In this document: in pieces, positions 15,281-25,185 of the stretch
Layout of the letters: each line of letters begins with the position of its first letter
Numbering within the stretch: position 1 is the first letter of the stretch
NCBI GenBank assembly: GCA_903871905.1
Contig: CAIQIV010000586.1
Coordinates: 1 to 49,961, forward strand
Origin: an uncultured Chloroflexota bacterium
GTDB taxonomy: Bacteria; Chloroflexota; Anaerolineae; Anaerolineales; UBA4823
DNA: 49,961 nucleotides
Reading direction: 5' to 3'
Notes under the pieces: model-generated
What the model saw: the letters and a program-made list of their open reading frames with translations, nothing else
Databases searched by the model: none
Told to the model about the DNA's origin: nothing
Program-made: the position numbers and the translations under genes

Positions 15281-16048
15281 GTGTGCAATATGGAAGAAAA
15301 ATCAGTTAATGATCCTCATCTCTGTCTGATGGTGCAAACGGATTTTGAGCAGATGGTGAACATACTGCGGCATGATTTACAGGACACACTGCGCCTGGTG
15401 ATCAGTTATTTGCGCTTACTGGAAAATCATCGTATGCAGTTGAGCCCAAATGATCGAGAATTTCTTTCCTATGCCCTGGACAGTGCAGATCGTTGCCAGC
15501 ACCTGGTGAGTGGACTGCTGGCTTATGCCAGGGTGGCTGGCGCGCCTGTTTCCCGGACTATGGTTGACTGCCAGGAGATGATAGAACAGGTTGTGGAAGA
15601 TATGCAACTGGTGATTGAGGACACGCAGGCGGTAATCCAATACCGGGATTTGCCAGTGATTGAAGCCGATCCAGAGCAGATGGAGCTGGTTTTCCACGGA
15701 ATTATTGAAACAGCCGTGCATCACTGCCGGGATTGTCCGCCCCATGTGCAAATCAGCGGCGATCCGACTGGCGAGGGCTGGGATTTTACCATCCATATGA
15801 ATGGGCCAGAAATTGAGCCCGGGGCAGTGGATAAGTTGTTCTCGCTGTTCACGCCTGTGTCGCCGGTGGTAAAAGACCCGGGAGTAGACCTGGCGATTTG
15901 TAAAAGGGTTATCCAAAACCATGATGGAAAAATCTGGGCAGCCTCACGGAATGTGGATGGAGTCACAATTGGTTTTTCAATTCCCAGGGCAGACCGGTCC
16001 CTCAACCCTGAAGTTGTTACCCATGTTGAGAATAAGAAAGGAGAGTAA
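15281..16048 (+). CDS. Sensor-less histidine-kinase-like protein (HisKA His present, ATP-binding boxes degenerate)
   Basis: 255 aa. H-box ILRHDLQDTLRLV. The N box reads GIIETAVHH, G1 reads HMNGPE and G2 reads DPGVDL. GAGGAGG lies 13 nt upstream of GTG 15281 (alternative start ATG 15290). Confidence 0.75.
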   Translation: MCNMEEKSVNDPHLCLMVQTDFEQMVNILRHDLQDTLRLVISYLRLLENHRMQLSPNDREFLSYALDSADRCQHLVSGLLAYARVAGAPVSRTMVDCQEMIEQVVEDMQLVIEDTQAVIQYRDLPVIEADPEQMELVFHGIIETAVHHCRDCPPHVQISGDPTGEGWDFTIHMNGPEIEPGAVDKLFSLFTPVSPVVKDPGVDLAICKRVIQNHDGKIWAASRNVDGVTIGFSIPRADRSLNPEVVTHVENKKGE

Positions 16049-16051
16049 AAG

Positions 16052-18502
16052 ATGTTACGATGGTTTGATAATTTGCGTATGGGCCGGAAGCTGATATTAT
16101 CATTCTTGATTGTGGCGCTTCTGGCCGGTGGGGTGGTTGGGGGTTTGGCTTACTATAATCTGATGCAGATGCAAAACATTCTGCACGAGATCACCCTGCA
16201 GCGTGTTCCTTCGGTGAAGAATGCGACCGGGGTGGAGCGTTATGCTTTGCGCACGATTATGGACGAAAAGATGTATCTGCTGGCTGCCAACGATTCGCGC
16301 ATGAATAAAGATACTTACCAGCAGTCAGCAATGAAGAACATTGAGGAGATTGTCAAATACCTGGATGAGGTCGACAAGGTGGCCAGGGAATATAACGACC
16401 AGGACCTGCTGGGAAAATCCCAGGAAGTGCGCAAAGTCACCGAGCAGTACCGTGGGTTGTACAACCAGGGCGTTAGCAAGCTGAACGAGCAGCAGAAGAT
16501 GGCTACGGTCATGGTGGAGAATGGCGTCCAAGTTACCGACCTGGCAAAGGCGTATTTCAACGATGTGGTCGGGAAGACCGATGAGCAGTCTTTACAGGCA
16601 TTGCCCATCCTGGTCAGCATCTGGGATACCGCTCTTGAGACCCGTCTGAATCAAAACAAGTACATGCTGTATAAGGATCAGAAATACTATACTGCTCTAG
16701 AGGATGGGATCAAGAAGCTGGGCACTTTTTACCAGGACCTGGAAAAGGTTACCACGGATGCCACAGGTTTGCAGCGTATAAAGGATGCCCAACAGGCAAC
16801 AGATGATTACTATTCAGCTGCACAGGAGTGGGTCAAGGCAGATAACGAGCTGAATCAGATCCTGGAACAGATGGCGACAATAGGGACCCAGGTTCAGGAA
16901 AACGCCATGGCTGCCGAGGATGCCGGCTGGCAAGCTGCGGATCTAAGCCGCGATGCGGCTGATGCGGCTTCGAAGCGGGCGGTGACGGTCACCATTGTTG
17001 CAGTTGTGCTGGCCATCCTGGCTTCCGTTGGCTTGGGATTCTGGATCTCGCGTACCATCACCACCCCGCTAGGGATCGCGGTATCAACTGCCCAGTTGTT
17101 GAAGGAAGGCGACCTGGCCAGGGATATGACCGATGGGGAAAAAGACCGGGTGAGGCTGCGCAAGGATGAGATTGGGGACCTGGGTAAAGCTTTTGATGGT
17201 CTGATTAATTATATGCAGGGTATGGGTGAAGTGGCTTTTCAGGTAGCTCAGAACGACTTAACGGTGACGGTCAAACCGAAATCTGCAAAGGACGAGCTGG
17301 GCAATGCCTTCCTGAAAATGATCAATGGTCTGCGGGACACGGTTGCCCAGGTTGCCGCCAATGCCCGGAACCTGAACGCAGCCTCGGATCAACTGGCTAC
17401 TGCAGCCAGTCAGGCAGGGCAGGCCACCAGCCAGATTGCCACCACGGTCCAGCAGGTGGCGCGCGGCACCGCCCAGCAGTCTGAGGCGGTCACTCGGACA
17501 GCGGCTTCGGTGGAGCAGATGGGGCGGGCAATTACTGGTGTGGCCAGAGGGGCACAAGAGCAGGCTGAGTCGGTCAGCAAGGCATCGGCAATTACCTCCC
17601 AAATCACGGCTGCCATTGAGCAGGTTTCAGGCAATGCCGATGCGGTCACCCGTGATTCAGGGAGCGCAGCCCAGGCTGCACGCTCAGGGGTGAGAACAGT
17701 CGAAGATACTATCCAGGGAATGCACTCCATCAAGGACAAGGTTGGCATCTCGGCCCAGAAAGTCCAGGAGATGGGGCAGCGATCGGACCAGATTGGAGCA
17801 ATTGTCGAAACCATCGAAGATATTGCCTCGCAGACCAACCTGTTGGCGCTGAATGCAGCTATTGAGGCGGCGCGCGCTGGAGAGCATGGCAAGGGCTTCG
17901 CGGTGGTGGCAGACGAAGTCCGCAAACTGGCTGAGAGGGCTGGCGGGGCAACCAAAGAGATTGGCGCCCTGATCAAGAGCATCCAGAAAACCGTAGAGGA
18001 AGCAGTTACTGCAATGAACGAAGGGGCGCGCGAGGTGGAAGTGGGTGTTGCCAGCGCCAACCAGGCCGGCCAGGCATTGGAGGATATTTTGCAGGCGGCA
18101 GAGGCGGTCTTCCAACAGGCCAACCAGGCATCCCAGGCTTCTCAACGTATGGCTGCTGCCTCGAATGAGCTGGTTGAGGCGGTGGATTCGGTCTCGGCGG
18201 TGGTGGAAGAAAACACTGCAGCCACGGAGGAGATGGCTGCCGGCTCTAACGAGGTGACGCAGGCAATCGAAAATATTGCCAGCGTCAGCGAGGAAAACAG
18301 TGCCGCGGTGGAGCAGGTCAGCGCCAGCGCTGAAGAGATGAGCGCCCAGGTTGAAGAGGTCACTGCATCTGCTCAGGCATTGGCTGAAATGTCGGCTGTG
18401 CTGCAAGACCTGGTTTCAGCTTTCAAGCTGGACAGCAGCGAAACTGCTTTACCGGTTCAGGGGGGGAGAAAGGCCTCCGGTGCTGTAAGGAGCGGGCGGT
18501 AG
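16052..18502 (+). CDS. Methyl-accepting chemotaxis protein (two TM segments, large extracytoplasmic domain, HAMP, MA domain)
   Basis: 816 aa. Signalling hairpin [48 protein letters not shown]. Only 3 nt separate it from the upstream gene. Confidence 0.95.
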
Positions 18503-18575
18503 GTGCGCCTGCTGGCTGCTTACTTCCCTCTCGAATGGATGAATGGTGCACAAATTCTTAAGGAGATAAATAGCT

Positions 18576-19016
18576 ATGGAATACCAGGTGGTTGTTTTTG
18601 AACTGGAAAAAGAATATTTTGGGGTGGATATTGCGGTAGTTGAAGGGATTATCAAGATGCAGCCCATCACCATCATCCCCCATGCACCTTACTATATTGA
18701 GGGTGTTATTAACCTGCGCGGCTCCATTCTTCCTGTGATGGATTTGGGTAAAAGATTTGGCATGGGTGGGCGGAGTTTGGATCAAAACAGCCGGATCGTG
18801 GTGATCGCTCTGCCGGGCGCCAAGGCAGGCATGATCGTCGATGGCGTTTCCGAGGTGCTGCGCATTCCGGATGAATCCATTGAAACGACACCTCCAATGG
18901 TGACGGACGTTGATTCTGTTTATATCACTGGGATCGCCAAGGTGGATGAGCGTTTGGTCATCCTGCTGGATCCAGAAAGGATCATTGACCCGGAGAAGCA
19001 TCTGACCCAGGTATAA
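18576..19016 (+). CDS. cheW: Chemotaxis coupling protein CheW
   Basis: 146 aa. CheW pattern EYFGVDIAVVEGII...GVINLRGSILPVMDLGKRFG. AAGGAG RBS. Confidence 0.93.
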   Translation: MEYQVVVFELEKEYFGVDIAVVEGIIKMQPITIIPHAPYYIEGVINLRGSILPVMDLGKRFGMGGRSLDQNSRIVVIALPGAKAGMIVDGVSEVLRIPDESIETTPPMVTDVDSVYITGIAKVDERLVILLDPERIIDPEKHLTQV

Positions 19017-19057
19017 CTGGGATTTTTCCCGGTACTTTATACAGGCTCAACAGGCTT

Positions 19058-19087
19058 GGGGCTGTCCGAAAAGTAATGGACAGCCCC
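19058..19087 (+). terminator. Hairpin after cheW (probable terminator)
   Basis: Perfect 10-bp stem GGGGCTGTCC / GGACAGCCCC with a 10-nt loop. The T tail is weak (TTCAAT). Confidence 0.45.
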
Positions 19088-19148: not shown

Positions 19149-19157
19149 TGCTATAAT
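19149..19157 (+). promoter_or_regulatory. Extended -10 promoter element TGcTATAAT
   Basis: TGCTATAAT at 19149-19157, with a weak -35 TTCATT at 19128-19133. Lies 30-48 nt upstream of the candidate starts of the next gene. Confidence 0.5.
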
Positions 19158-19186: not shown

Positions 19187-21394
19187 TTGTTGAAGATAGA
19201 TGTTATGCTGGAATTGAGGGATTTTTTTCATCTTCCGCAGATTGATGAGTGGATCCGGACCATGCTGGCAGCCGGACCGGGGCTGCGGCTGATTGCAGGG
19301 CCTGATGCCAGGCTGGGTCAGCATGCCGACTATCGCGATGGTTTTCGTCCCAGCGGCAGATCTGCCCTGTTCTGGTTGTTGATGGATATGTTCCTGGCAG
19401 AATCACCTTCAAAAACCTGCATCGTTGTGACACAGGACAGGCAGAATGTCCGCATTCAGCGCGAGTTCCGCCGACGTGTCCAGGTGTTTGCCACCACCCC
19501 ATCGAACTCCTATGTGAATCAAATTGCCCTGGCTATGGCTCGTCGCCCTCAACTGTTGGTGGTAGACCGGTTTGAACCAGATACGGCTCCAATTATCCTC
19601 CAGGCGGCTAACCTGGGGTTGGTAGTCCTTTCGCAGATGGATACGGTCTTGTGGGGCAGTGGAGTGTGCAGCCAGTTGGTTGAGATGGGTTTGACCTCTG
19701 TCCAGCTTGCCAGCCTGGCCTGGGTGGTGGCAGTCCACCGGCTGCCAGGGTTGTGCCCGCACTGCAGGCGGGAGGTGCTTGAACTGGATTCAACAGGTGA
19801 GCAGCCTGGAACCATGTTTATCAGCCCGGGCTGCCAGGCCTGCCGAGGGAGCGGGCGCCAGGGAGATGTGGCTGCCTTTGACATCTTGCATCTTCCTCGC
19901 GGGGCTCACGGTCAGGGCGAGCTGGTCAGCCAGGTGGCCATGCAGGATTACCTGGAGCGCCTGGCTGTCCTGGGGCATATTGACCAGGAGAGCAGCCGGT
20001 ATTACTGCACCGATCAGCTGCGCCGGGCATTTCAACTTCTGACCTGGCGCGAGCAGGTCCTGGCTGAGAAATCTTCTGCATACGAGCGTAAGATGGCAGA
20101 GCTGGAGGCTGCAAACAGGGTACTGCAGCAGCGAACAACTTCCTTGTTTTCCTTGGAGGAGATTAGCCAGGCGCTGATCGCCTCGGTTGACCTGCCAGAT
20201 TTGGCAGACCGTGTCTGCCGCCGCGCCCGGGATGTGTGCGGCGCCGATCGAGCCATCCTCTTCTTTCACAACTCACAGCGGCAGGTGGAAGTCCTGGCAG
20301 TTGGGGGATGGCCTGCAGTGCTGCTGCACCAGAGGCTGCAGCCGGAGGCGCTGGCAGAGATCACGAAGGGCAATGATCCGGTGGTCCTCCAGCGCTGGCC
20401 GCCCAGCATCCCGCAGCCAGAACTGCCCCGCAACTTGTACTTGAGGGCGGGGCTTTACGTGCCTTTGGTGACACAGAACACCAGTTCAGGGGGGTTGCTG
20501 GTTCATTCCACCCTGAAGAGTTTTTTCTCGCCGGGTGAGATTGCCTTACTTAAAGCGCTTGCCAATCAGGCGGCGTTGGCTTTCCAGCGCGCCAGGATGG
20601 TGCAGGATCTGCAGGCCAAGATAGCCCTCCTGGAGACCGCCCAATCCGAGCTGGCCAAGAAGGAGAGATTGGAGCGCGAGCTGGAATTAGCGCGCCAGGT
20701 TCAGCAGAGCCTGCTGCCAACCACCTTCCCGGAGATGCGCGGTTTCCGTTTCGCCGCACGCAACGAGCCCGCCCGCCAGGTTGGGGGGGATTTTTATGAT
20801 GTTTTTGCCCTGGATGAGCAGCATTTTGGCATCGTGGTTGCAGATGTTTCAGATAAAGGGATGCCGGCCGCTTTGTATATGGCCCTGACACGCAGTCTGC
20901 TGCTGGCTGAAGCCCGGCGAGAACGTTCGCCGCAAAAGGTTGTACGGGATGTGAACCAGCTGCTGCTTGAGCTGGGCCAACCGGACATGTTTGTCACCCT
21001 GTTCTATGGCGTGGTGGACTGTATCAGCCGGCGGCTGATTTACACCCGTGCCGGTCATGATCACCCCTTCTGGGTGCATGATGCCCAGGTTCACTTCCTG
21101 GGGGGGAGGGGCGCAGCGCTTGGGATCCTGGATTCTGCTGAATTGGAAATGACAGAAGAATGGGTCGATCTGGCTGCAGGGGATCGCCTGGTGCTTTACA
21201 CCGATGGATTGACCGATGCCTTGAATGTTGCAGGCGAGCTATATCAGCGGGAAAGGTTGGCGGCGCTGGTGCAGTCAGCAGGTCATCTCCCGGCTGAACT
21301 GCTGTGCGAGGTGATCTTTGCCTCGTTGATGGAGTTCCAGGAGGGCGCTGAGCAGTATGATGACATGACACTGCTGGTGGTGGAAGTGCTCTGA
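19187..21394 (+). CDS. Fusion protein: degenerate GspE/PilB-type secretion-ATPase domain + coiled coil + GAF + PP2C/SpoIIE phosphatase
   Basis: 735 aa. The N-terminal part follows T2SS-E topology with the Cys4 motif retained (CPHC..CQAC) but with altered Walker A, Walker B, Asp and His boxes. C-terminal SpoIIE motifs are GGDFYDVF, VVADVSDKGMPAALYM, YTRAGHDHP, LYTDGLTDA and DDMTLLVVEV. Start is TTG 19187 or ATG 19205. Confidence 0.8.
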   Translation: MLKIDVMLELRDFFHLPQIDEWIRTMLAAGPGLRLIAGPDARLGQHADYRDGFRPSGRSALFWLLMDMFLAESPSKTCIVVTQDRQNVRIQREFRRRVQVFATTPSNSYVNQIALAMARRPQLLVVDRFEPDTAPIILQAANLGLVVLSQMDTVLWGSGVCSQLVEMGLTSVQLASLAWVVAVHRLPGLCPHCRREVLELDSTGEQPGTMFISPGCQACRGSGRQGDVAAFDILHLPRGAHGQGELVSQVAMQDYLERLAVLGHIDQESSRYYCTDQLRRAFQLLTWREQVLAEKSSAYERKMAELEAANRVLQQRTTSLFSLEEISQALIASVDLPDLADRVCRRARDVCGADRAILFFHNSQRQVEVLAVGGWPAVLLHQRLQPEALAEITKGNDPVVLQRWPPSIPQPELPRNLYLRAGLYVPLVTQNTSSGGLLVHSTLKSFFSPGEIALLKALANQAALAFQRARMVQDLQAKIALLETAQSELAKKERLERELELARQVQQSLLPTTFPEMRGFRFAARNEPARQVGGDFYDVFALDEQHFGIVVADVSDKGMPAALYMALTRSLLLAEARRERSPQKVVRDVNQLLLELGQPDMFVTLFYGVVDCISRRLIYTRAGHDHPFWVHDAQVHFLGGRGAALGILDSAELEMTEEWVDLAAGDRLVLYTDGLTDALNVAGELYQRERLAALVQSAGHLPAELLCEVIFASLMEFQEGAEQYDDMTLLVVEVL

Positions 21395-21419: not shown

Positions 21420-22880
21420 ATGGCAAAAACCCGTACCCAATATGTCTGCCAGCAGTGCGGTCGGTCTGCCCCACGAGCGATGGGGCGCTGCCCACAGTGC
21501 GGTACCTGGAACTCGATGGTGGAGGAGGTGGTTGAGATCACCCCGGTCCCGGCAGCCGCGCATGCGGGGCGCGGCCTGGGAGGGCGTTCTTCTCCTCGCC
21601 GCCTGTCGGAGATCAGCGGTGATTTTGAAGCGCGTCTGCCGCTCTCGATCGGCGAGTTTGCCCGCGTCCTGGGTGGGGGGATTGTGCCAGGCTCGGTGGT
21701 GTTGTTAGGAGGCGATCCAGGGATTGGGAAGTCAACCCTGCTGCTGCAGCTGGCGCTGGAGATGGCGCAGCAGGTGCGTGTCCTGTATGTGTCAGGAGAA
21801 GAGTCAGAGCGCCAGATCAAGATGCGCGCTGTGCGTCTGCTGCGCAATGGGAACGGTGAGGATGAGAAAGATGATAGCGGAGGGATTGCCTCGATGCCGG
21901 AAGAACTGCTCCTGGTAACCGAAACCAACTTGAATGTGATCCTGGAGCATGTCACAGAGGTCAAGCCATTATTGTTGATCCTGGATTCGGTCCAGACCAC
22001 CTACCTGCCAGAGCTAGACTCGTCCGCGGGTTCAGTGACCCAGGTGAGGGAGACTGCCTCACGCTTGCGGGAGCTGGCAAAAACCAGTGGGGTTGCCGTA
22101 TTCCTTATCGGGCATGTCACCAAGGAAGGAGCGATTGCTGGCCCGCGCATCCTGGAGCACATTGTCGATACGGTTCTGTACCTGGAAGGAGACCGTTTCC
22201 AGTCTTACCGTCTGCTGCGCTCGGTCAAGAACCGCTTTGGCGCCACGTCTGAGGTGGGGGTCTTTGAGATGCGCGAACGGGGGATGGTGGAGATCACCAA
22301 TCCATCGGAAGCTTTCCTGGCAGAGCGCATGATCAATGCTCCTGGCTCTGCCATCGCGGTGACCATGGAGGGCACTCGCCCACTCCTGGTGGAGATCCAG
22401 GGCTTGACCAGCCCGACCTCCTTTGGCAACCCGCGGCGTACGCCAAATGGGATCGACTTTAATCGCCTGCTGTTGACGGTTGCCGTGCTCACCCGGCGGG
22501 TGGGGCTTCATCTGGGGGAACAGGATATCTTTGTCAACGTAGTGGGAGGCATGGCAGTCAGCGAGCCGGCAGCGGACCTGGCAGTTGCCGCCGCGGTGGC
22601 TTCTTCCATGCGGAATATTTCAGTGCGAGCAGATACGGTGTTGATTGGTGAAGTAGGCCTGTCTGGCGAACTGCGCATGGTAGGGCAGATGCCTGCCCGC
22701 CTGCGGGAAGCCGCCAAGCTTGGCTTTCGCACCGCCATCGTGCCCCGCCGCCTGAGGGCGATTGAACCGTGGCCGCAGGGCATTCAGGTGGTGGAAGTGC
22801 GCTCTTTGCGCCAGGCCCTGGAGCAGGCGTTTGTGGATGATGGTAAGGGGAAAGATGCTGCCTCACCCCGGGACCAATAA
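21420..22880 (+). CDS. radA: DNA repair protein RadA/Sms
   Basis: C4 zinc finger (CQQCG..CPQCG), Walker A GGDPGIGKST, KNRFG motif, and a Lon-like C-terminal domain. GGAGGG RBS. Confidence 0.96.
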   Translation: MAKTRTQYVCQQCGRSAPRAMGRCPQCGTWNSMVEEVVEITPVPAAAHAGRGLGGRSSPRRLSEISGDFEARLPLSIGEFARVLGGGIVPGSVVLLGGDPGIGKSTLLLQLALEMAQQVRVLYVSGEESERQIKMRAVRLLRNGNGEDEKDDSGGIASMPEELLLVTETNLNVILEHVTEVKPLLLILDSVQTTYLPELDSSAGSVTQVRETASRLRELAKTSGVAVFLIGHVTKEGAIAGPRILEHIVDTVLYLEGDRFQSYRLLRSVKNRFGATSEVGVFEMRERGMVEITNPSEAFLAERMINAPGSAIAVTMEGTRPLLVEIQGLTSPTSFGNPRRTPNGIDFNRLLLTVAVLTRRVGLHLGEQDIFVNVVGGMAVSEPAADLAVAAAVASSMRNISVRADTVLIGEVGLSGELRMVGQMPARLREAAKLGFRTAIVPRRLRAIEPWPQGIQVVEVRSLRQALEQAFVDDGKGKDAASPRDQ

Positions 22881-24651: not shown

Positions 24652-25185
24652 ATGACTGACCAGTTGGTACATGTTTCTCAATCTGTCTTAAATTTTTCCC
24701 CACTGCTGCGCGTGCGCCGCAACCATGGGCTGGAACATGCCACGCTGCATGTGCTGGCAGACCGCTTTCCGAAAGTTCCGTTTGCCGGTCATTCGGACCT
24801 CTTTGGCTTTTGGATAGTTGGAGATGTCAGCTCGGAGGATTTGTACGCCGCGGTGCTCGAGGCCCTGAACCGGCTGCGAAATGGGGAAGAAGGCCTGGCG
24901 GTTCACCCAAATTGCGGGACAAATTATGTGGCTGCGGGCTTGCTATCTGGTTTTGCGGTCTGGGTTTCTATGTTGGGGACCGGGCGTCCCTTGAAGGAAA
25001 AGCTCGAACGGCTGCCGCTGGCTCTGGTGGTTGCGACCCTGGCATTGATGGTTTCACAACCAGCCGGCCAGCTTCTGCAGAGCCATGTCACCACCTCAGG
25101 GCAGCCTGGAAAGATGCGGGTGATCCAGATCTCGACCTCTTATTCAGGAAAGGTGAAGGCTCACCGCGTGGTCACCGAGGGGTAA
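24652..25185 (+). CDS. Conserved hypothetical membrane protein (NHGLEH / HPNCGTN motifs)
   Basis: 177 aa with hydrophobic segments in the C-terminal half. His/Cys-containing motifs suggest a metal site. Lies 4 nt after the previous gene and 4 nt before holA. Confidence 0.6.
   Translation: MTDQLVHVSQSVLNFSPLLRVRRNHGLEHATLHVLADRFPKVPFAGHSDLFGFWIVGDVSSEDLYAAVLEALNRLRNGEEGLAVHPNCGTNYVAAGLLSGFAVWVSMLGTGRPLKEKLERLPLALVVATLALMVSQPAGQLLQSHVTTSGQPGKMRVIQISTSYSGKVKAHRVVTEG

What the first reader, a model, noticed from the sequence alone, without database searches (positions are those of the whole stretch)
19187..21394. Catalytically degenerate GspE/PilB-type ATPase domain fused to GAF and PP2C (SpoIIE) phosphatase
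Residues of roughly 25-235 follow the order of type II/IV secretion ATPase (T2SS-E) motifs, but every catalytic box is altered. Walker A GPTGSGK[ST] reads GPDARLGQ. The Asp box (EDP.E) reads QDRQN. The Walker B region (D..mvGE.RD) reads LLVVDRFEPD. The His box (TGHLV.STLHT) reads LGLVVLSQMDT. The tetracysteine zinc motif is retained (CPHCRRE...CQACRGSGRQGD), as is the following GR-like segment. A coiled coil, a GAF domain and a complete SpoIIE-type PP2C follow (GGDFYDVF, ADVSDKGMPAAL, AGHDHP, YTDGLTDA, DDMTLLVVEV). A dead secretion-ATPase scaffold used as the input domain of a Ser/Thr phosphatase is not an architecture I know to be described. It lies directly downstream of the MCP/CheW operon and has its own extended -10 promoter (19149-19157). 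No STAS or anti-sigma partner-switching genes are nearby.
Basis: partly seen in the sequence, partly recalled or inferred. Interest (0 to 1): 0.6.

Follow-up and report, generated by a model that had tools for sequence, protein, structure and literature searches.

The report
Dead pilus-ATPase domain on a phosphatase
This gene encodes a signalling protein phosphatase whose front end is a secretion/pilus motor ATPase domain that has lost its catalytic residues and has apparently been re-used as a control module; the combination occurs in a minority of Anaerolineae (Chloroflexota) genomes and I found no paper describing it.

Summary
The gene most likely starts at ATG 19205 and ends at 21394 (729 aa). 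It encodes a GspE/PilB-type ATPase C-domain with its zinc subdomain, a 60-residue helix, a GAF domain, a second 60-residue helix, and an intact SpoIIE-type PP2C phosphatase.

- **Fold:** Pfam T2SSE scores 37.3 bits against a cut-off of 24.9. The AlphaFold model (pLDDT 87.6) matches PilF, GspE and PilB at Foldseek E 6e-19 and TM 0.72-0.74. A profile-profile comparison gives 99% probability.
- **Degeneracy:** This is a family trait. None of 111 full-length members has GxxGxGK[ST]. Walker A is split by a 14-50-residue insertion and ends in a conserved P-S-G-R-S (Lys to Arg), not GPDARLGQ.
- **Distribution:** One copy each in 22 of 401 sampled Anaerolineae genomes.
- **Context:** No gene neighbour is conserved, so the MCP/CheW adjacency is incidental. 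None of the 22 carriers has a real PilB/GspE.
- **Modularity:** One relative joins the same N-domain/helix/GAF unit to an adenylate/guanylate cyclase. This suggests an exchangeable input module.
- **Likely function:** A non-hydrolysing regulatory domain that controls a dimeric PP2C acting on phospho-STAS proteins encoded elsewhere. The signal is unknown.
- **Status:** Public records call it only 'SpoIIE family phosphatase' or 'RsbU', and I found no literature. It is a new variant of a known kind.

The parts
19149..19157 (+). TGCTATAAT, an extended -10-like element 48 nt upstream of ATG 19205. Function is unverified.
   Evidence: Read directly from the sequence. The sigma-70 scan found no -35/-10 pair.
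19205..21394 (+). Whole gene (729 aa + stop): pseudo-ATPase, helix, GAF, helix, PP2C phosphatase.
   Evidence: ORF list. The start is set by the alignment of 22 homologues. Pfam domains. Full-length AF2 model with pLDDT 84.2.
19205..19996 (+). GspE/PilB-type ATPase C-terminal domain with the zinc-binding (CM) subdomain, catalytically degenerate (residues 7-270 of the TTG-numbered ORF).
   Evidence: Pfam T2SSE 37.3 bits. Profile against PDB sequences: PilF/GspE/PilB at E 4e-15. AF2 plus Foldseek: E 6e-19, TM 0.72-0.74. hhalign 99%.
19298..19363 (+). Split Walker A remnant: G38-P-D, then a poorly predicted insertion, then P55-S-G-R-S59 at the N-terminus of the helix (Lys to Arg).
   Evidence: hhalign columns. 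pLDDT is below 50 in the insertion. At the Lys position, 98 of 108 members with a residue there have R.
19553..19573 (+). Walker B equivalent, LLVVDRF (VGEI in active enzymes). The catalytic Glu is replaced by Arg.
   Evidence: hhalign. The Glu position across the family is R54/Q19/E10/H7/K7.
19616..19645 (+). His-box equivalent, GLVVLSQMDT (TGHLV.STLHT in active enzymes). Both His are lost.
   Evidence: hhalign. Family column counts.
19754..19843 (+). Tetracysteine zinc motif, C190-P-H-C ... 22 residues ... C216-Q-A-C.
   Evidence: Regex on the translation. The four Cys are present in 107-108 of 108 aligned members. The CXXCX21-40CXXC definition comes from PMC5061722.
20003..20182 (+). 60-residue helix (residues 273-332) carrying the invariant ELEAANRVLQQRT block. 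I read it as a coiled-coil signalling helix.
   Evidence: AF2 secondary structure. Invariant a/d-spaced residues L306, A309, V312, L313, T317, L320, L323. The S-helix assignment rests on my own knowledge and was not tested.
20189..20587 (+). GAF domain.
   Evidence: Pfam GAF 41.3 bits, GAF_2 38.8 bits.
20531..20713 (+). Second long helix (residues 449-509) linking GAF to PP2C. It contains KERLERELELARQVQQSLLP.
   Evidence: AF2 secondary structure. Invariant residues.
20744..21391 (+). SpoIIE/RsbU-type PP2C phosphatase domain with intact metal-binding motifs (GGDFYD, ADVSDKG, YTDGLTDA, DDMT).
   Evidence: Pfam SpoIIE 162 bits. Closest solved relatives are P. aeruginosa RssB 3eq2 at E 3e-20, SiaA 6k4e and SpoIIE. 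The Asp residues are invariant in 22 sequences.

Best explanation
The gene encodes a cytoplasmic, stand-alone signalling Ser/Thr phosphatase of the SpoIIE/RsbU (PP2C/PPM) type. Its N-terminal input module is derived from the C-terminal ATPase domain of a GspE/PilB-type assembly ATPase and has become a pseudo-enzyme.

Shown here:
- The fold and the zinc subdomain are kept.
- The N2 domain, which supplies arginine fingers and builds the hexamer ring in real motors, is absent.
- The P-loop is interrupted by a variable insertion, and its Lys is Arg.
- The Asp-box, Walker B Glu and both His-box His are replaced, and several of these positions vary within the family.

Inferred:
- The domain does not hydrolyse ATP. 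It acts as a regulatory or sensor module.
- Its state is passed through a conserved 60-residue coiled-coil helix to the GAF domain, and through a second long helix to the PP2C.
- This would follow the linker-mediated dimer mechanism described for RsbU, RsbP and RsbZ (PMC12143880), in which ordering or rotation of the crossing helices sets the PP2C switch helices and so the Mn/Mg site.
- The conserved remnant P-S-G-R at a helix N-terminus, together with conserved acidic residues at the Walker B and His-box positions, points to one of two things: a retained anion or phosphate-ligand site, or an internal salt-bridge network that stands in for bound nucleotide.
- The most likely substrate is a phosphorylated STAS (anti-anti-sigma type) protein encoded elsewhere in the genome. 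That would make this one input branch of a partner-switching network.

The signal sensed is not known.
For: Identity of the N-domain:
- Searches agree on a GspE/PilB-type C-domain.

Degeneracy as a family trait:
- None of 111 full-length members has GxxGxGK[ST].
- The Walker A Ser/Thr position is S49/A26/G13/T7 and the Walker B Glu position is R54/Q19/E10/H7/K7. This is relaxed constraint on catalysis.
- PSGR, D127, D152-T153 and the four Cys stay conserved.

Purifying selection on the whole architecture:
- At least 42 full-length copies occur in species-representative genomes, all Chloroflexota and mostly Anaerolineae.
- The gene is single-copy in 22 of 401 genomes of the class.

Module behaviour:
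- One relative (P0068) has the same N-domain, helix and GAF but a PAS plus class III cyclase output.
- Another variant adds a C-terminal GNAT domain.

Architecture:
- The model shows two 60-residue helices bracketing the GAF domain, with invariant a/d-spaced residues.
- This matches the coiled-coil-linked PPM architecture of PMC12143880.

Phosphatase and its likely partners:
- The PP2C is intact.
- The genome holds 13 STAS hits, three small RsbW-like kinases and about ten SpoIIE hits. One STAS-RsbW pair, on contig C844, has no phosphatase beside it.
- RsbW-like kinases occur in 20 of 22 carriers against 185 of 379 non-carriers (Fisher p = 9e-5).
Against: - No biochemical data exist. Nucleotide binding cannot be excluded by sequence alone. 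Arg can still contact phosphates, and four members keep Lys.
- No partner gene is linked in cis in any of 42 loci, so the substrate assignment is by analogy only.
- The full-length model has pTM 0.45, so the arrangement of the domains is not predicted. No dimer model could be made.
- The cyclase-fused variant rests on a single 8.8-kb metagenome contig.
Confidence: 0.6

Rival explanations
1. The N-domain still binds ATP or ADP, or hydrolyses ATP slowly, and works as an energy-charge sensor that gates the phosphatase. This would be analogous to the energy-stress branch (RsbP) of the Bacillus general stress response.
For: The P-loop end S-G-R-S is conserved at the helix N-terminus, and an acidic residue is conserved at the Walker B position (D87/E19 of 108). 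Four members have Lys at the Walker A position.
Against: A 14-50-residue variable insertion interrupts the P-loop. The Mg-binding Ser/Thr is Ala or Gly in about a third of members. The catalytic Glu position is variable and both His-box His are gone. The N2 domain with the arginine fingers is absent, since the protein begins at the start of the C-domain.
Confidence: 0.2
2. The N-domain is a docking or 'poison-subunit' module. It inserts into, or binds to, a secretion or pilus ATPase ring or its platform, and so places the phosphatase at a pilus or secretion machine.
For: The fold is that of a ring-forming motor subunit. EpsE variants with a defective CM domain are dominant negative, possibly through mixed oligomers (PMC5061722). 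Carrier genomes do encode CpaF-like ATPases.
Against: None of the 22 carriers has a PilB/GspE-type ATPase. Their best hit to the PilB model is 62 bits, whereas real PilBs in the same class score 426-539 bits. No pilus, T2SS or Tad gene is enriched among 141 flanking genes of 42 loci. The N2 domain that mediates ring contacts is missing.
Confidence: 0.1
3. The retained Zn-Cys4 subdomain is the sensor. Oxidation or zinc loss changes the N-domain conformation and switches the phosphatase, so the protein is a redox or metal input to a stress response.
For: The four Cys are the most strictly conserved feature of a domain in which all the catalytic boxes decayed. Zinc release changes the conformation and activity of EpsE (PMC5061722).
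Against: The same four Cys are equally invariant in active PilB/GspE enzymes, where they are structural. Their conservation therefore does not point to redox sensing. Six of 111 members have fewer than two CxxC.
Confidence: 0.08
4. The N-domain is an inert relic that only supplies dimerisation or solubility. The GAF domain alone is the sensor.
For: GAF-PP2C proteins work without such a domain (PMC12143880). The N-domain is less conserved than the rest of the protein, with mean column identity 45% against 55% overall.
Against: Family-specific residues at the former active site (PSGR, D127, D152-T153), the N-terminal DFFHLP block and the connecting helix are nearly invariant over sequences that share only 35-45% identity in this domain. 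The module also travels together with GAF to another output domain.
Confidence: 0.1

Closest known systems
RsbU / RsbP / RsbZ-type general-stress-response PPM phosphatases (SpoIIE family, PF07228). The closest solved PP2C domains are P. aeruginosa RssB (3eq2/3f7a) and SiaA (6k4e).
   Same: The C-terminal PP2C has intact metal-binding Asp motifs. The N-terminal regulatory domains are joined by long helices. A GAF domain precedes the phosphatase, as in RsbZ. Partner-switching components are present in the genome.
   Different: The outermost input domain is a secretion-ATPase C-domain. The input domains listed for these phosphatases in PMC12143880 are PAS, receiver, GAF, HAMP and RsbU-N. No STAS, RsbW or sigma gene lies in cis in any of 42 loci.
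GspE/EpsE, PilB and PilF assembly ATPases of type II secretion and type IV pili (PF00437, GspE/PilB subfamily with the CM zinc domain).
   Same: The C-domain fold is the same (TM 0.72-0.74). The order of all motifs is the same. The CXXC-X22-CXXC zinc motif is kept, as are the shared QRL and G.G..(E/D) structural motifs.
   Different: There are no N1 or N2 domains. Walker A is split and has K replaced by R. The Asp box, Walker B Glu and His box are lost. There is no association with pilus or secretion genes, and carriers lack any active PilB/GspE.
Tandem MshEN + 2 x T2SSE proteins of about 1000 aa. These were the best-scoring non-family hits in the representative search.
   Same: They have PilB-type C-domains with the tetracysteine motif. 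In several (P0128, P0132, P0134) only one of the two domains matches GxxGxGK[ST]. In P0172 (739 aa, no MshEN hit, two T2SSE stretches) neither does. Partial degeneration of T2SSE domains is therefore not unique to this family.
   Different: They keep at least one canonical Walker A (except P0172), the N2 regions and the MshEN domain, and they have no GAF or PP2C. Per domain they score only 53-79 bits against the family profile, and Anaerolineae PilBs score 38-52 bits. No specific ancestor can be named.

Membership tests
GspE/PilB-type secretion ATPase (PF00437 T2SSE) | Sequence and profile match to the family, and the RecA-like C-domain fold | tested here: met
   Pfam 37.3 bits against a cut-off of 24.9. 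Profile against PDB sequences E 4e-15. Foldseek E 6e-19, TM 0.72-0.74. hhalign 99%.
GspE/PilB-type secretion ATPase (PF00437 T2SSE) | Walker A G-x-x-G-x-G-K-[ST] | tested here: not met
   The motif is split by an insertion and reads G-P-D ... P-S-G-R-S. None of 111 family members has the motif.
GspE/PilB-type secretion ATPase (PF00437 T2SSE) | Asp box (E-D-P-I-E), Walker B Glu (V-G-E-I-R-D) and His box (T-G-H ... L-H-T) | tested here: not met
   They read QDRQN, VDRFEP and LGL ... MDT. These positions are variable or replaced across 115 members.
GspE/PilB-type secretion ATPase (PF00437 T2SSE) | Tetracysteine CM zinc subdomain (CXXCX21-40CXXC), which marks the assembly-ATPase subfamily | tested here: met
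   C190PHC-X22-C216QAC. The Cys are invariant. The definition is from PMC5061722. Zinc binding itself cannot be tested here.
GspE/PilB-type secretion ATPase (PF00437 T2SSE) | N2 domain preceding the C-domain (hexamer contacts, arginine fingers), and gene linkage with platform, pilin or secretin genes | tested here: not met
   The protein starts at the beginning of the C-domain: residue 21 (query column 15 in M7 numbering) aligns with column 16 of the active C-domain profile, which begins 32 residues before Walker A. No such genes are found among 141 neighbours of 42 loci.
SpoIIE/RsbU-type PP2C phosphatase (PF07228) | Full-length HMM match | tested here: met
   162 bits against a cut-off of 25, covering profile positions 2-191 of 192.
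SpoIIE/RsbU-type PP2C phosphatase (PF07228) | Metal-binding Asp residues in the GDxxD, DVSG/DxG, TDG and DD motifs | tested here: met
   D535/D538, D553/D556, D673/D677 and D725/D726 are invariant in 22 sequences. They are aligned with RssB 3eq2. Which motifs are the metal ligands comes from my own knowledge.
SpoIIE/RsbU-type PP2C phosphatase (PF07228) | Phosphatase activity on a phospho-Ser/Thr substrate | not testable with these tools
   This needs an enzyme assay.
Partner-switching module (PP2C + STAS + RsbW-type kinase) | STAS and anti-sigma kinase genes adjacent to the phosphatase | tested here: not met
   None lies on the 49,961-base contig, and none among 141 neighbours in 42 loci. Such genes exist elsewhere in the genome: 13 STAS hits and three small RsbW-like kinases.
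GAF domain (PF01590) | HMM match above the cut-off | tested here: met
   GAF 41.3 bits (cut-off 22.4), GAF_2 38.8 bits and GAF_3 32.6 bits.
Signalling helix (S-helix) / coiled-coil linker | A 40-60-residue helix between an input and an output domain, with heptad-spaced conserved hydrophobic residues and an (E/Q)RT-like motif | tested here: inconclusive
   A helix at 273-332 is predicted, with invariant L306/A309/V312/L313/T317/L320/L323 and the QQRT motif. No S-helix model or dimer prediction was available. The assignment is from my own knowledge.

The most novel reading that the evidence does not exclude
A PilB/GspE motor-ATPase C-domain has been converted into a portable sensory input domain. 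It would bind a phosphate-bearing ligand at the remodelled P-loop, or switch through its Zn-Cys4 subdomain. It now drives different signalling outputs (a PP2C phosphatase, and in one relative a nucleotide cyclase) in bacteria that no longer have the parent motor. That would add a new class of input domain to the bacterial signal-transduction repertoire.
Probability: 0.4. Interest if true: 0.7.

Novelty: new variant of a known kind. Interest (0 to 1): 0.55.

Why it matters
Bacterial PPM/PP2C phosphatases are built from exchangeable input domains joined by coiled-coil linkers. The known inputs are PAS, GAF, HAMP, receiver and RsbU-N (PMC12143880). A secretion-motor ATPase domain used as an input would extend that list. 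It would also be a clear bacterial example of a pseudo-enzyme recruited for signalling.

The family is small, single-copy and well conserved, and the N-domain model is confident, so it is a tractable target for ligand screening and structural work. It could also show what regulates stress or sigma-factor networks in Anaerolineae, a largely uncultured group common in digesters, sediments and wastewater systems.

Tried and rejected
- **Conserved operon partners.** A tblastn of the window's neighbours (HK, MCP, CheW, RadA, Dus and others) against 42 homologous loci found none next to the homologues. All-against-all clustering of 464 flanking ORFs gave no cluster in more than 4 loci. A Pfam scan of 141 nearest neighbours showed no enriched family. 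The MCP/CheW and radA adjacency is therefore incidental.
- **A regulator or poison subunit of a resident PilB.** Rejected. None of the 22 carriers has a PilB-type ATPase. The apparent exclusion from the 25 PilB-positive genomes of the class is not significant (P = 0.23).
- **Motif mapping against the genome's own T2SSE proteins.** They are too distant to align. Their strongest PF00437 matches cover profile positions 3-276 only, and I read them as CpaF-like. I used active PilB-like C-domains from the representative search instead.
- **Origin of the domain.** Per-domain HMM scores against tandem T2SSE proteins (53-79 bits) and Anaerolineae PilBs (38-52 bits) do not single out an ancestor.
- **Phylogenetic profiling of a candidate substrate system.** The RsbW-like kinase of contig C844 has homologues in 205 of 401 genomes. 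That is too widespread and paralogous to pin down a specific partner, and only a general enrichment in carriers was seen.
- **Literature.** Three full-text searches for the domain combination found nothing relevant.
- **Artefactual fusion.** Rejected. The full-length architecture recurs in at least 42 independent assemblies.
Full report
**1. The observation**

The + strand ORF 19187-21394 is present. It translates without stops to 735 residues from a TTG. All 21 homologues recovered from a 5.8-billion-protein collection start at the position of M7, with a conserved ML.L.DFFHLPQ block. The real start is therefore most likely ATG 19205, giving 729 aa. The 710-aa gene call on record for this contig starts at M26 and would remove nearly invariant residues.

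Pfam gives SpoIIE at 162 bits (residues 544-734), GAF at 41 bits (335-465) and T2SSE at 37.3 bits (residues 106-236, profile positions 197-322 of 370). All are above their gathering scores. NCBIfam gives only sub-threshold partial hits to PilB, GspE and TfpB over the same stretch, and to RssB, SiaA and SpoIIE over the C-terminus.

**2. The N-terminal domain is a GspE/PilB-type C-domain**

- A profile of the first ~280 residues of 21 family members finds PilF, GspE/EpsE and PilB among PDB sequences at E 4e-15 to 3e-12. PilT and DotB score more weakly.
- An AlphaFold2 model of residues 7-283 is confident, with pLDDT 87.6 and pTM 0.86. Only the loop at model residues 37-43 falls below pLDDT 50.
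- Foldseek against the PDB returns T. thermophilus PilF, Vibrio GspE/EpsE and Geobacter PilB at E 6e-19 to 1e-15. TM scores are 0.69-0.74 over 285-300 columns, which is the whole domain.

**3. Motif-by-motif state**

I aligned the family profile (A2) with a profile of eleven active PilB-like C-domains (A3). Each carries GP[TA]GSGKT; ten read GPTGSGKT and one GPAGSGKT. All carry EDPIEY/ENPIEY, VGEIR, TGH..STLH and CxxC..CxxC. hhalign gives probability 99% and E 9e-18 over 220 columns.

| Motif | Active enzymes | This protein |
|---|---|---|
| Strand before the P-loop | tTGPT | IAGPD |
| Insertion | none | 14 residues here, up to about 50 in relatives, poorly predicted |
| End of Walker A | G-S-G-K-T | P55-S-G-R-S59 |
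| Asp box | EDPIE | QDRQN |
| Walker B | VGEIRD | VDRFEP |
| His box | TGHLV.STLHT | LGLVVLSQMDT |
| Zinc motif | CXXCX21-40CXXC | C190PHC-X22-C216QAC |

The Walker A reading (GPDARLGQ) takes the insertion for the motif and misses the K to R remnant.

Counts across 115 distinct full-length members:

| Position | Residues found |
|---|---|
| Walker A Lys | R98, H4, K4, L2 |
| Walker A Ser/Thr | S49, A26, G13, T7 |
| Walker B Glu | R54, Q19, E10, H7, K7 |
| First His-box His | mixed L/V/I/R/T |
| Second His-box His | D89, E9, N8 |
| The four Cys | 107-108 of 108 |

None of 111 full-length members has GxxGxGK[ST]. Variation at positions that must be fixed for catalysis, alongside strict conservation elsewhere, is the pattern expected of a pseudo-enzyme that is still under selection for another role. 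The protein also has no N2 domain, because it begins at the start of the C-domain.

**4. The rest of the protein**

The full-length model has pLDDT 84.2. Its pTM of 0.45 means the domains are individually confident but their mutual arrangement is not. It shows:

- the N-domain (7-270);
- a 60-residue helix (273-332);
- GAF (336-448);
- a second 60-residue helix (449-509);
- the PP2C (520-734).

The first helix carries the invariant block ELEAANRVLQQRT, with a/d-spaced invariant hydrophobic residues. From my own knowledge this resembles a signalling helix; I did not test that. All PP2C metal-binding motifs are invariant. The closest solved relatives are P. aeruginosa RssB (E 3e-20), SiaA, SpoIIE and Rv1364c.

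**5. Distribution**

- The family is small. It gave 23 clusters at 90% identity in the word-indexed search.
- About 116 representatives at 50% identity score E<1e-30 among 1.84 billion. Many of those are fragments.
- In species-representative genomes, 42 loci match across essentially the whole length of the protein. All come from Chloroflexota MAGs, mostly labelled Anaerolineae, Anaerolineales, Promineifilum, Thermoflexales or Ardenticatenaceae.
- In an even sample of the window's class, 22 of 401 genomes (14 of 216 genera) carry it. Each has one copy, apart from one split across two contig ends. Most carriers are 4-6.5 Mb genomes. None of the other genomes of the window's own order has it.
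- Sources name it 'serine phosphatase RsbU' or 'SpoIIE family protein phosphatase'.
- Three full-text searches found no paper on the combination.

The second refutation condition ('common and already annotated') is only trivially met. Automatic Pfam strings list the domains, but nothing describes the architecture.

**6. Genomic context**

The gene follows an HK-like/MCP/CheW run. A terminator-like site overlaps the end of cheW (19006-19021). A perfect 10-bp hairpin lies at 19058-19087. TGCTATAAT lies at 19149-19157, but no -35/-10 pair was scored. radA starts 25 nt after the stop codon.

None of these neighbours accompanies the homologues in 42 loci. No ORF cluster recurs in more than 4 loci. 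No Pfam family is enriched among 141 nearest neighbours; the commonest are ABC_tran and Response_reg at 6 each, and there are no STAS, RsbW, sigma or pilus genes. The gene is a free-standing unit, and the MCP/CheW position carries no functional weight.

**7. Relation to pilus and secretion machines**

The window's genome is a MAG of 865 contigs, 92.6% complete and 8% contaminated. Apart from this gene it has only distant T2SSE proteins. Their strongest PF00437 matches cover profile positions 3-276, and I read them as CpaF-like.

In the 21 other carriers the best hit to the PilB model is 62 bits. The only hits reaching the zinc-subdomain part of the model are the phosphatase genes themselves. 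Real PilBs in the same class score 426-539 bits and occur in 25 of 401 genomes, none of which is a carrier. With these numbers zero overlap is expected by chance 23% of the time. I therefore claim only that carriers lack the parent motor, not that the two exclude each other. This argues against the idea that the domain joins or regulates a PilB/GspE ring.

**8. Evidence that the N-domain is a portable input module**

One relative (P0068, 825 aa) matches the family profile at E 1e-73 over positions 1-293. It has the same N-domain (with a PGGRS remnant), the same conserved helix and the same GAF. It then continues into PAS and a class III adenylate/guanylate cyclase instead of PP2C. It is a complete ORF inside an 8.8-kb contig with housekeeping neighbours. 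It is a singleton, and a second search found no further cyclase fusion, so I treat it as suggestive. A second variant adds a C-terminal GNAT domain and has four members on separate contigs.

**9. Likely output**

The genome encodes 13 STAS hits, three small RsbW-type kinases and about ten SpoIIE-type phosphatases. Two modules, on C829 and C283, have their own phosphatase. The STAS-RsbW pair on C844 has none beside it. RsbW-like kinases are found in 20 of 22 carriers against 185 of 379 non-carriers (p = 9e-5). A partner-switching substrate is therefore plausible but unassigned.

**10. Mechanism proposed**

Following the RsbU, RsbP and RsbZ model (PMC12143880), N-terminal sensor domains control PPM dimers through crossing coiled-coil linkers. 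On that model I propose a dimeric phosphatase in which the pseudo-ATPase domain sets the state of the first helix, GAF integrates a second input, and the second helix sets the PP2C switch elements.

- **Shown:** domain identities, degeneracy, conservation, lack of linkage, and absence of a parent motor.
- **Inferred:** non-hydrolysis, the dimeric relay and the STAS substrate.
- **Unknown:** the signal.

The conserved PSGR at a helix N-terminus, together with acidic residues at the Walker B and His-box sites, could form an anion or ligand site, or a salt-bridge network replacing the nucleotide. The rivals are a nucleotide or energy sensor, a docking subunit, a Zn-Cys redox switch and an inert relic. 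They are listed with their tests.

**11. Earlier notes of this scan**

- Another first-stage reader flagged the same fusion in a different genome and also read 'LLPSGRTT (Lys to Arg, with an insertion)'. This agrees with the hhalign result I obtained independently here.
- A note on this window describes the upstream HK-like/MCP/CheW unit, bounded by the 19058-19087 hairpin.
- A note from a third genome (a CpaF-type ATPase next to STAS and a kinase-GAF-phosphatase) is an untested lead for a link between secretion-type ATPases and partner switching.

**12. Verdict**

The protein is a new variant of the modular SpoIIE/RsbU phosphatases with an input domain I could not find described. Interest is moderate.

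Noticed in passing
L081:5001-7478 (protein P0068): An 825-aa protein with the same degenerate N-domain, conserved helix and GAF, but followed by PAS and a class III adenylate/guanylate cyclase domain instead of PP2C. It is a singleton on one 8.8-kb ENA contig, with housekeeping neighbours.
   Followed up: partly
protein P0036 (921 aa) and cluster members P0175, P0176: A family variant with an extra C-terminal GNAT acetyltransferase domain after the PP2C. It has four members on different contigs.
   Followed up: partly
proteins P0125-P0147 (about 1000 aa) and P0172 (739 aa) from the representative search: Tandem secretion ATPases with MshEN plus two T2SSE C-domains, each with its own tetracysteine motif. 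In P0128, P0132 and P0134 only one domain matches GxxGxGK[ST]. In P0172 (no MshEN hit) neither does. These may be further, separate cases of degenerate T2SSE domains.
   Followed up: no
window 15281-19016: A soluble HisKA/HATPase_c protein (255 aa), an 816-aa MCP (4HB, HAMP, MCPsignal) and CheW lie in one same-strand run. No cheA, cheY, cheR or cheB was found in the ORFs scanned between 12.8 and 26.2 kb. This is the subject of another first-stage note.
   Followed up: no
window 19006-19021 and 19058-19087: There are two hairpins between cheW and the phosphatase gene. One is a terminator-like stem with a T-run overlapping the cheW stop. The other is a perfect 10-bp GC-rich stem (GGGGCTGTCC / GGACAGCCCC) without a T-run.
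   Followed up: no
window 21420-22880: radA (Zn-ribbon, AAA_25/KaiC-like, Lon_C/ChlI) starts only 25 nt after the phosphatase stop on the same strand, so it may be co-transcribed. This adjacency is not seen in any of 42 related loci.
   Followed up: partly
genome contig C844:10474-11256 (- strand): An RsbW-like kinase (137 aa) and a STAS protein (122 aa) form a pair with no PP2C phosphatase or sigma factor beside them. They are flanked by a WD40-like lipoprotein and a large secreted protein. The pair is a candidate orphan partner-switching module.
   Followed up: partly
genomes G380 and G399 (same genus), ORFs of 717-732 aa: Family members whose match to the N-domain profile stops at position ~190, before the zinc subdomain. 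Six of 111 members overall have fewer than two CxxC motifs. This may be a sub-lineage that has lost the zinc motif.
   Followed up: no
window 24652-25185: A DUF6391 protein (134.8 bits) sits between a MerR-type regulator and holA. Its function is unknown.
   Followed up: no
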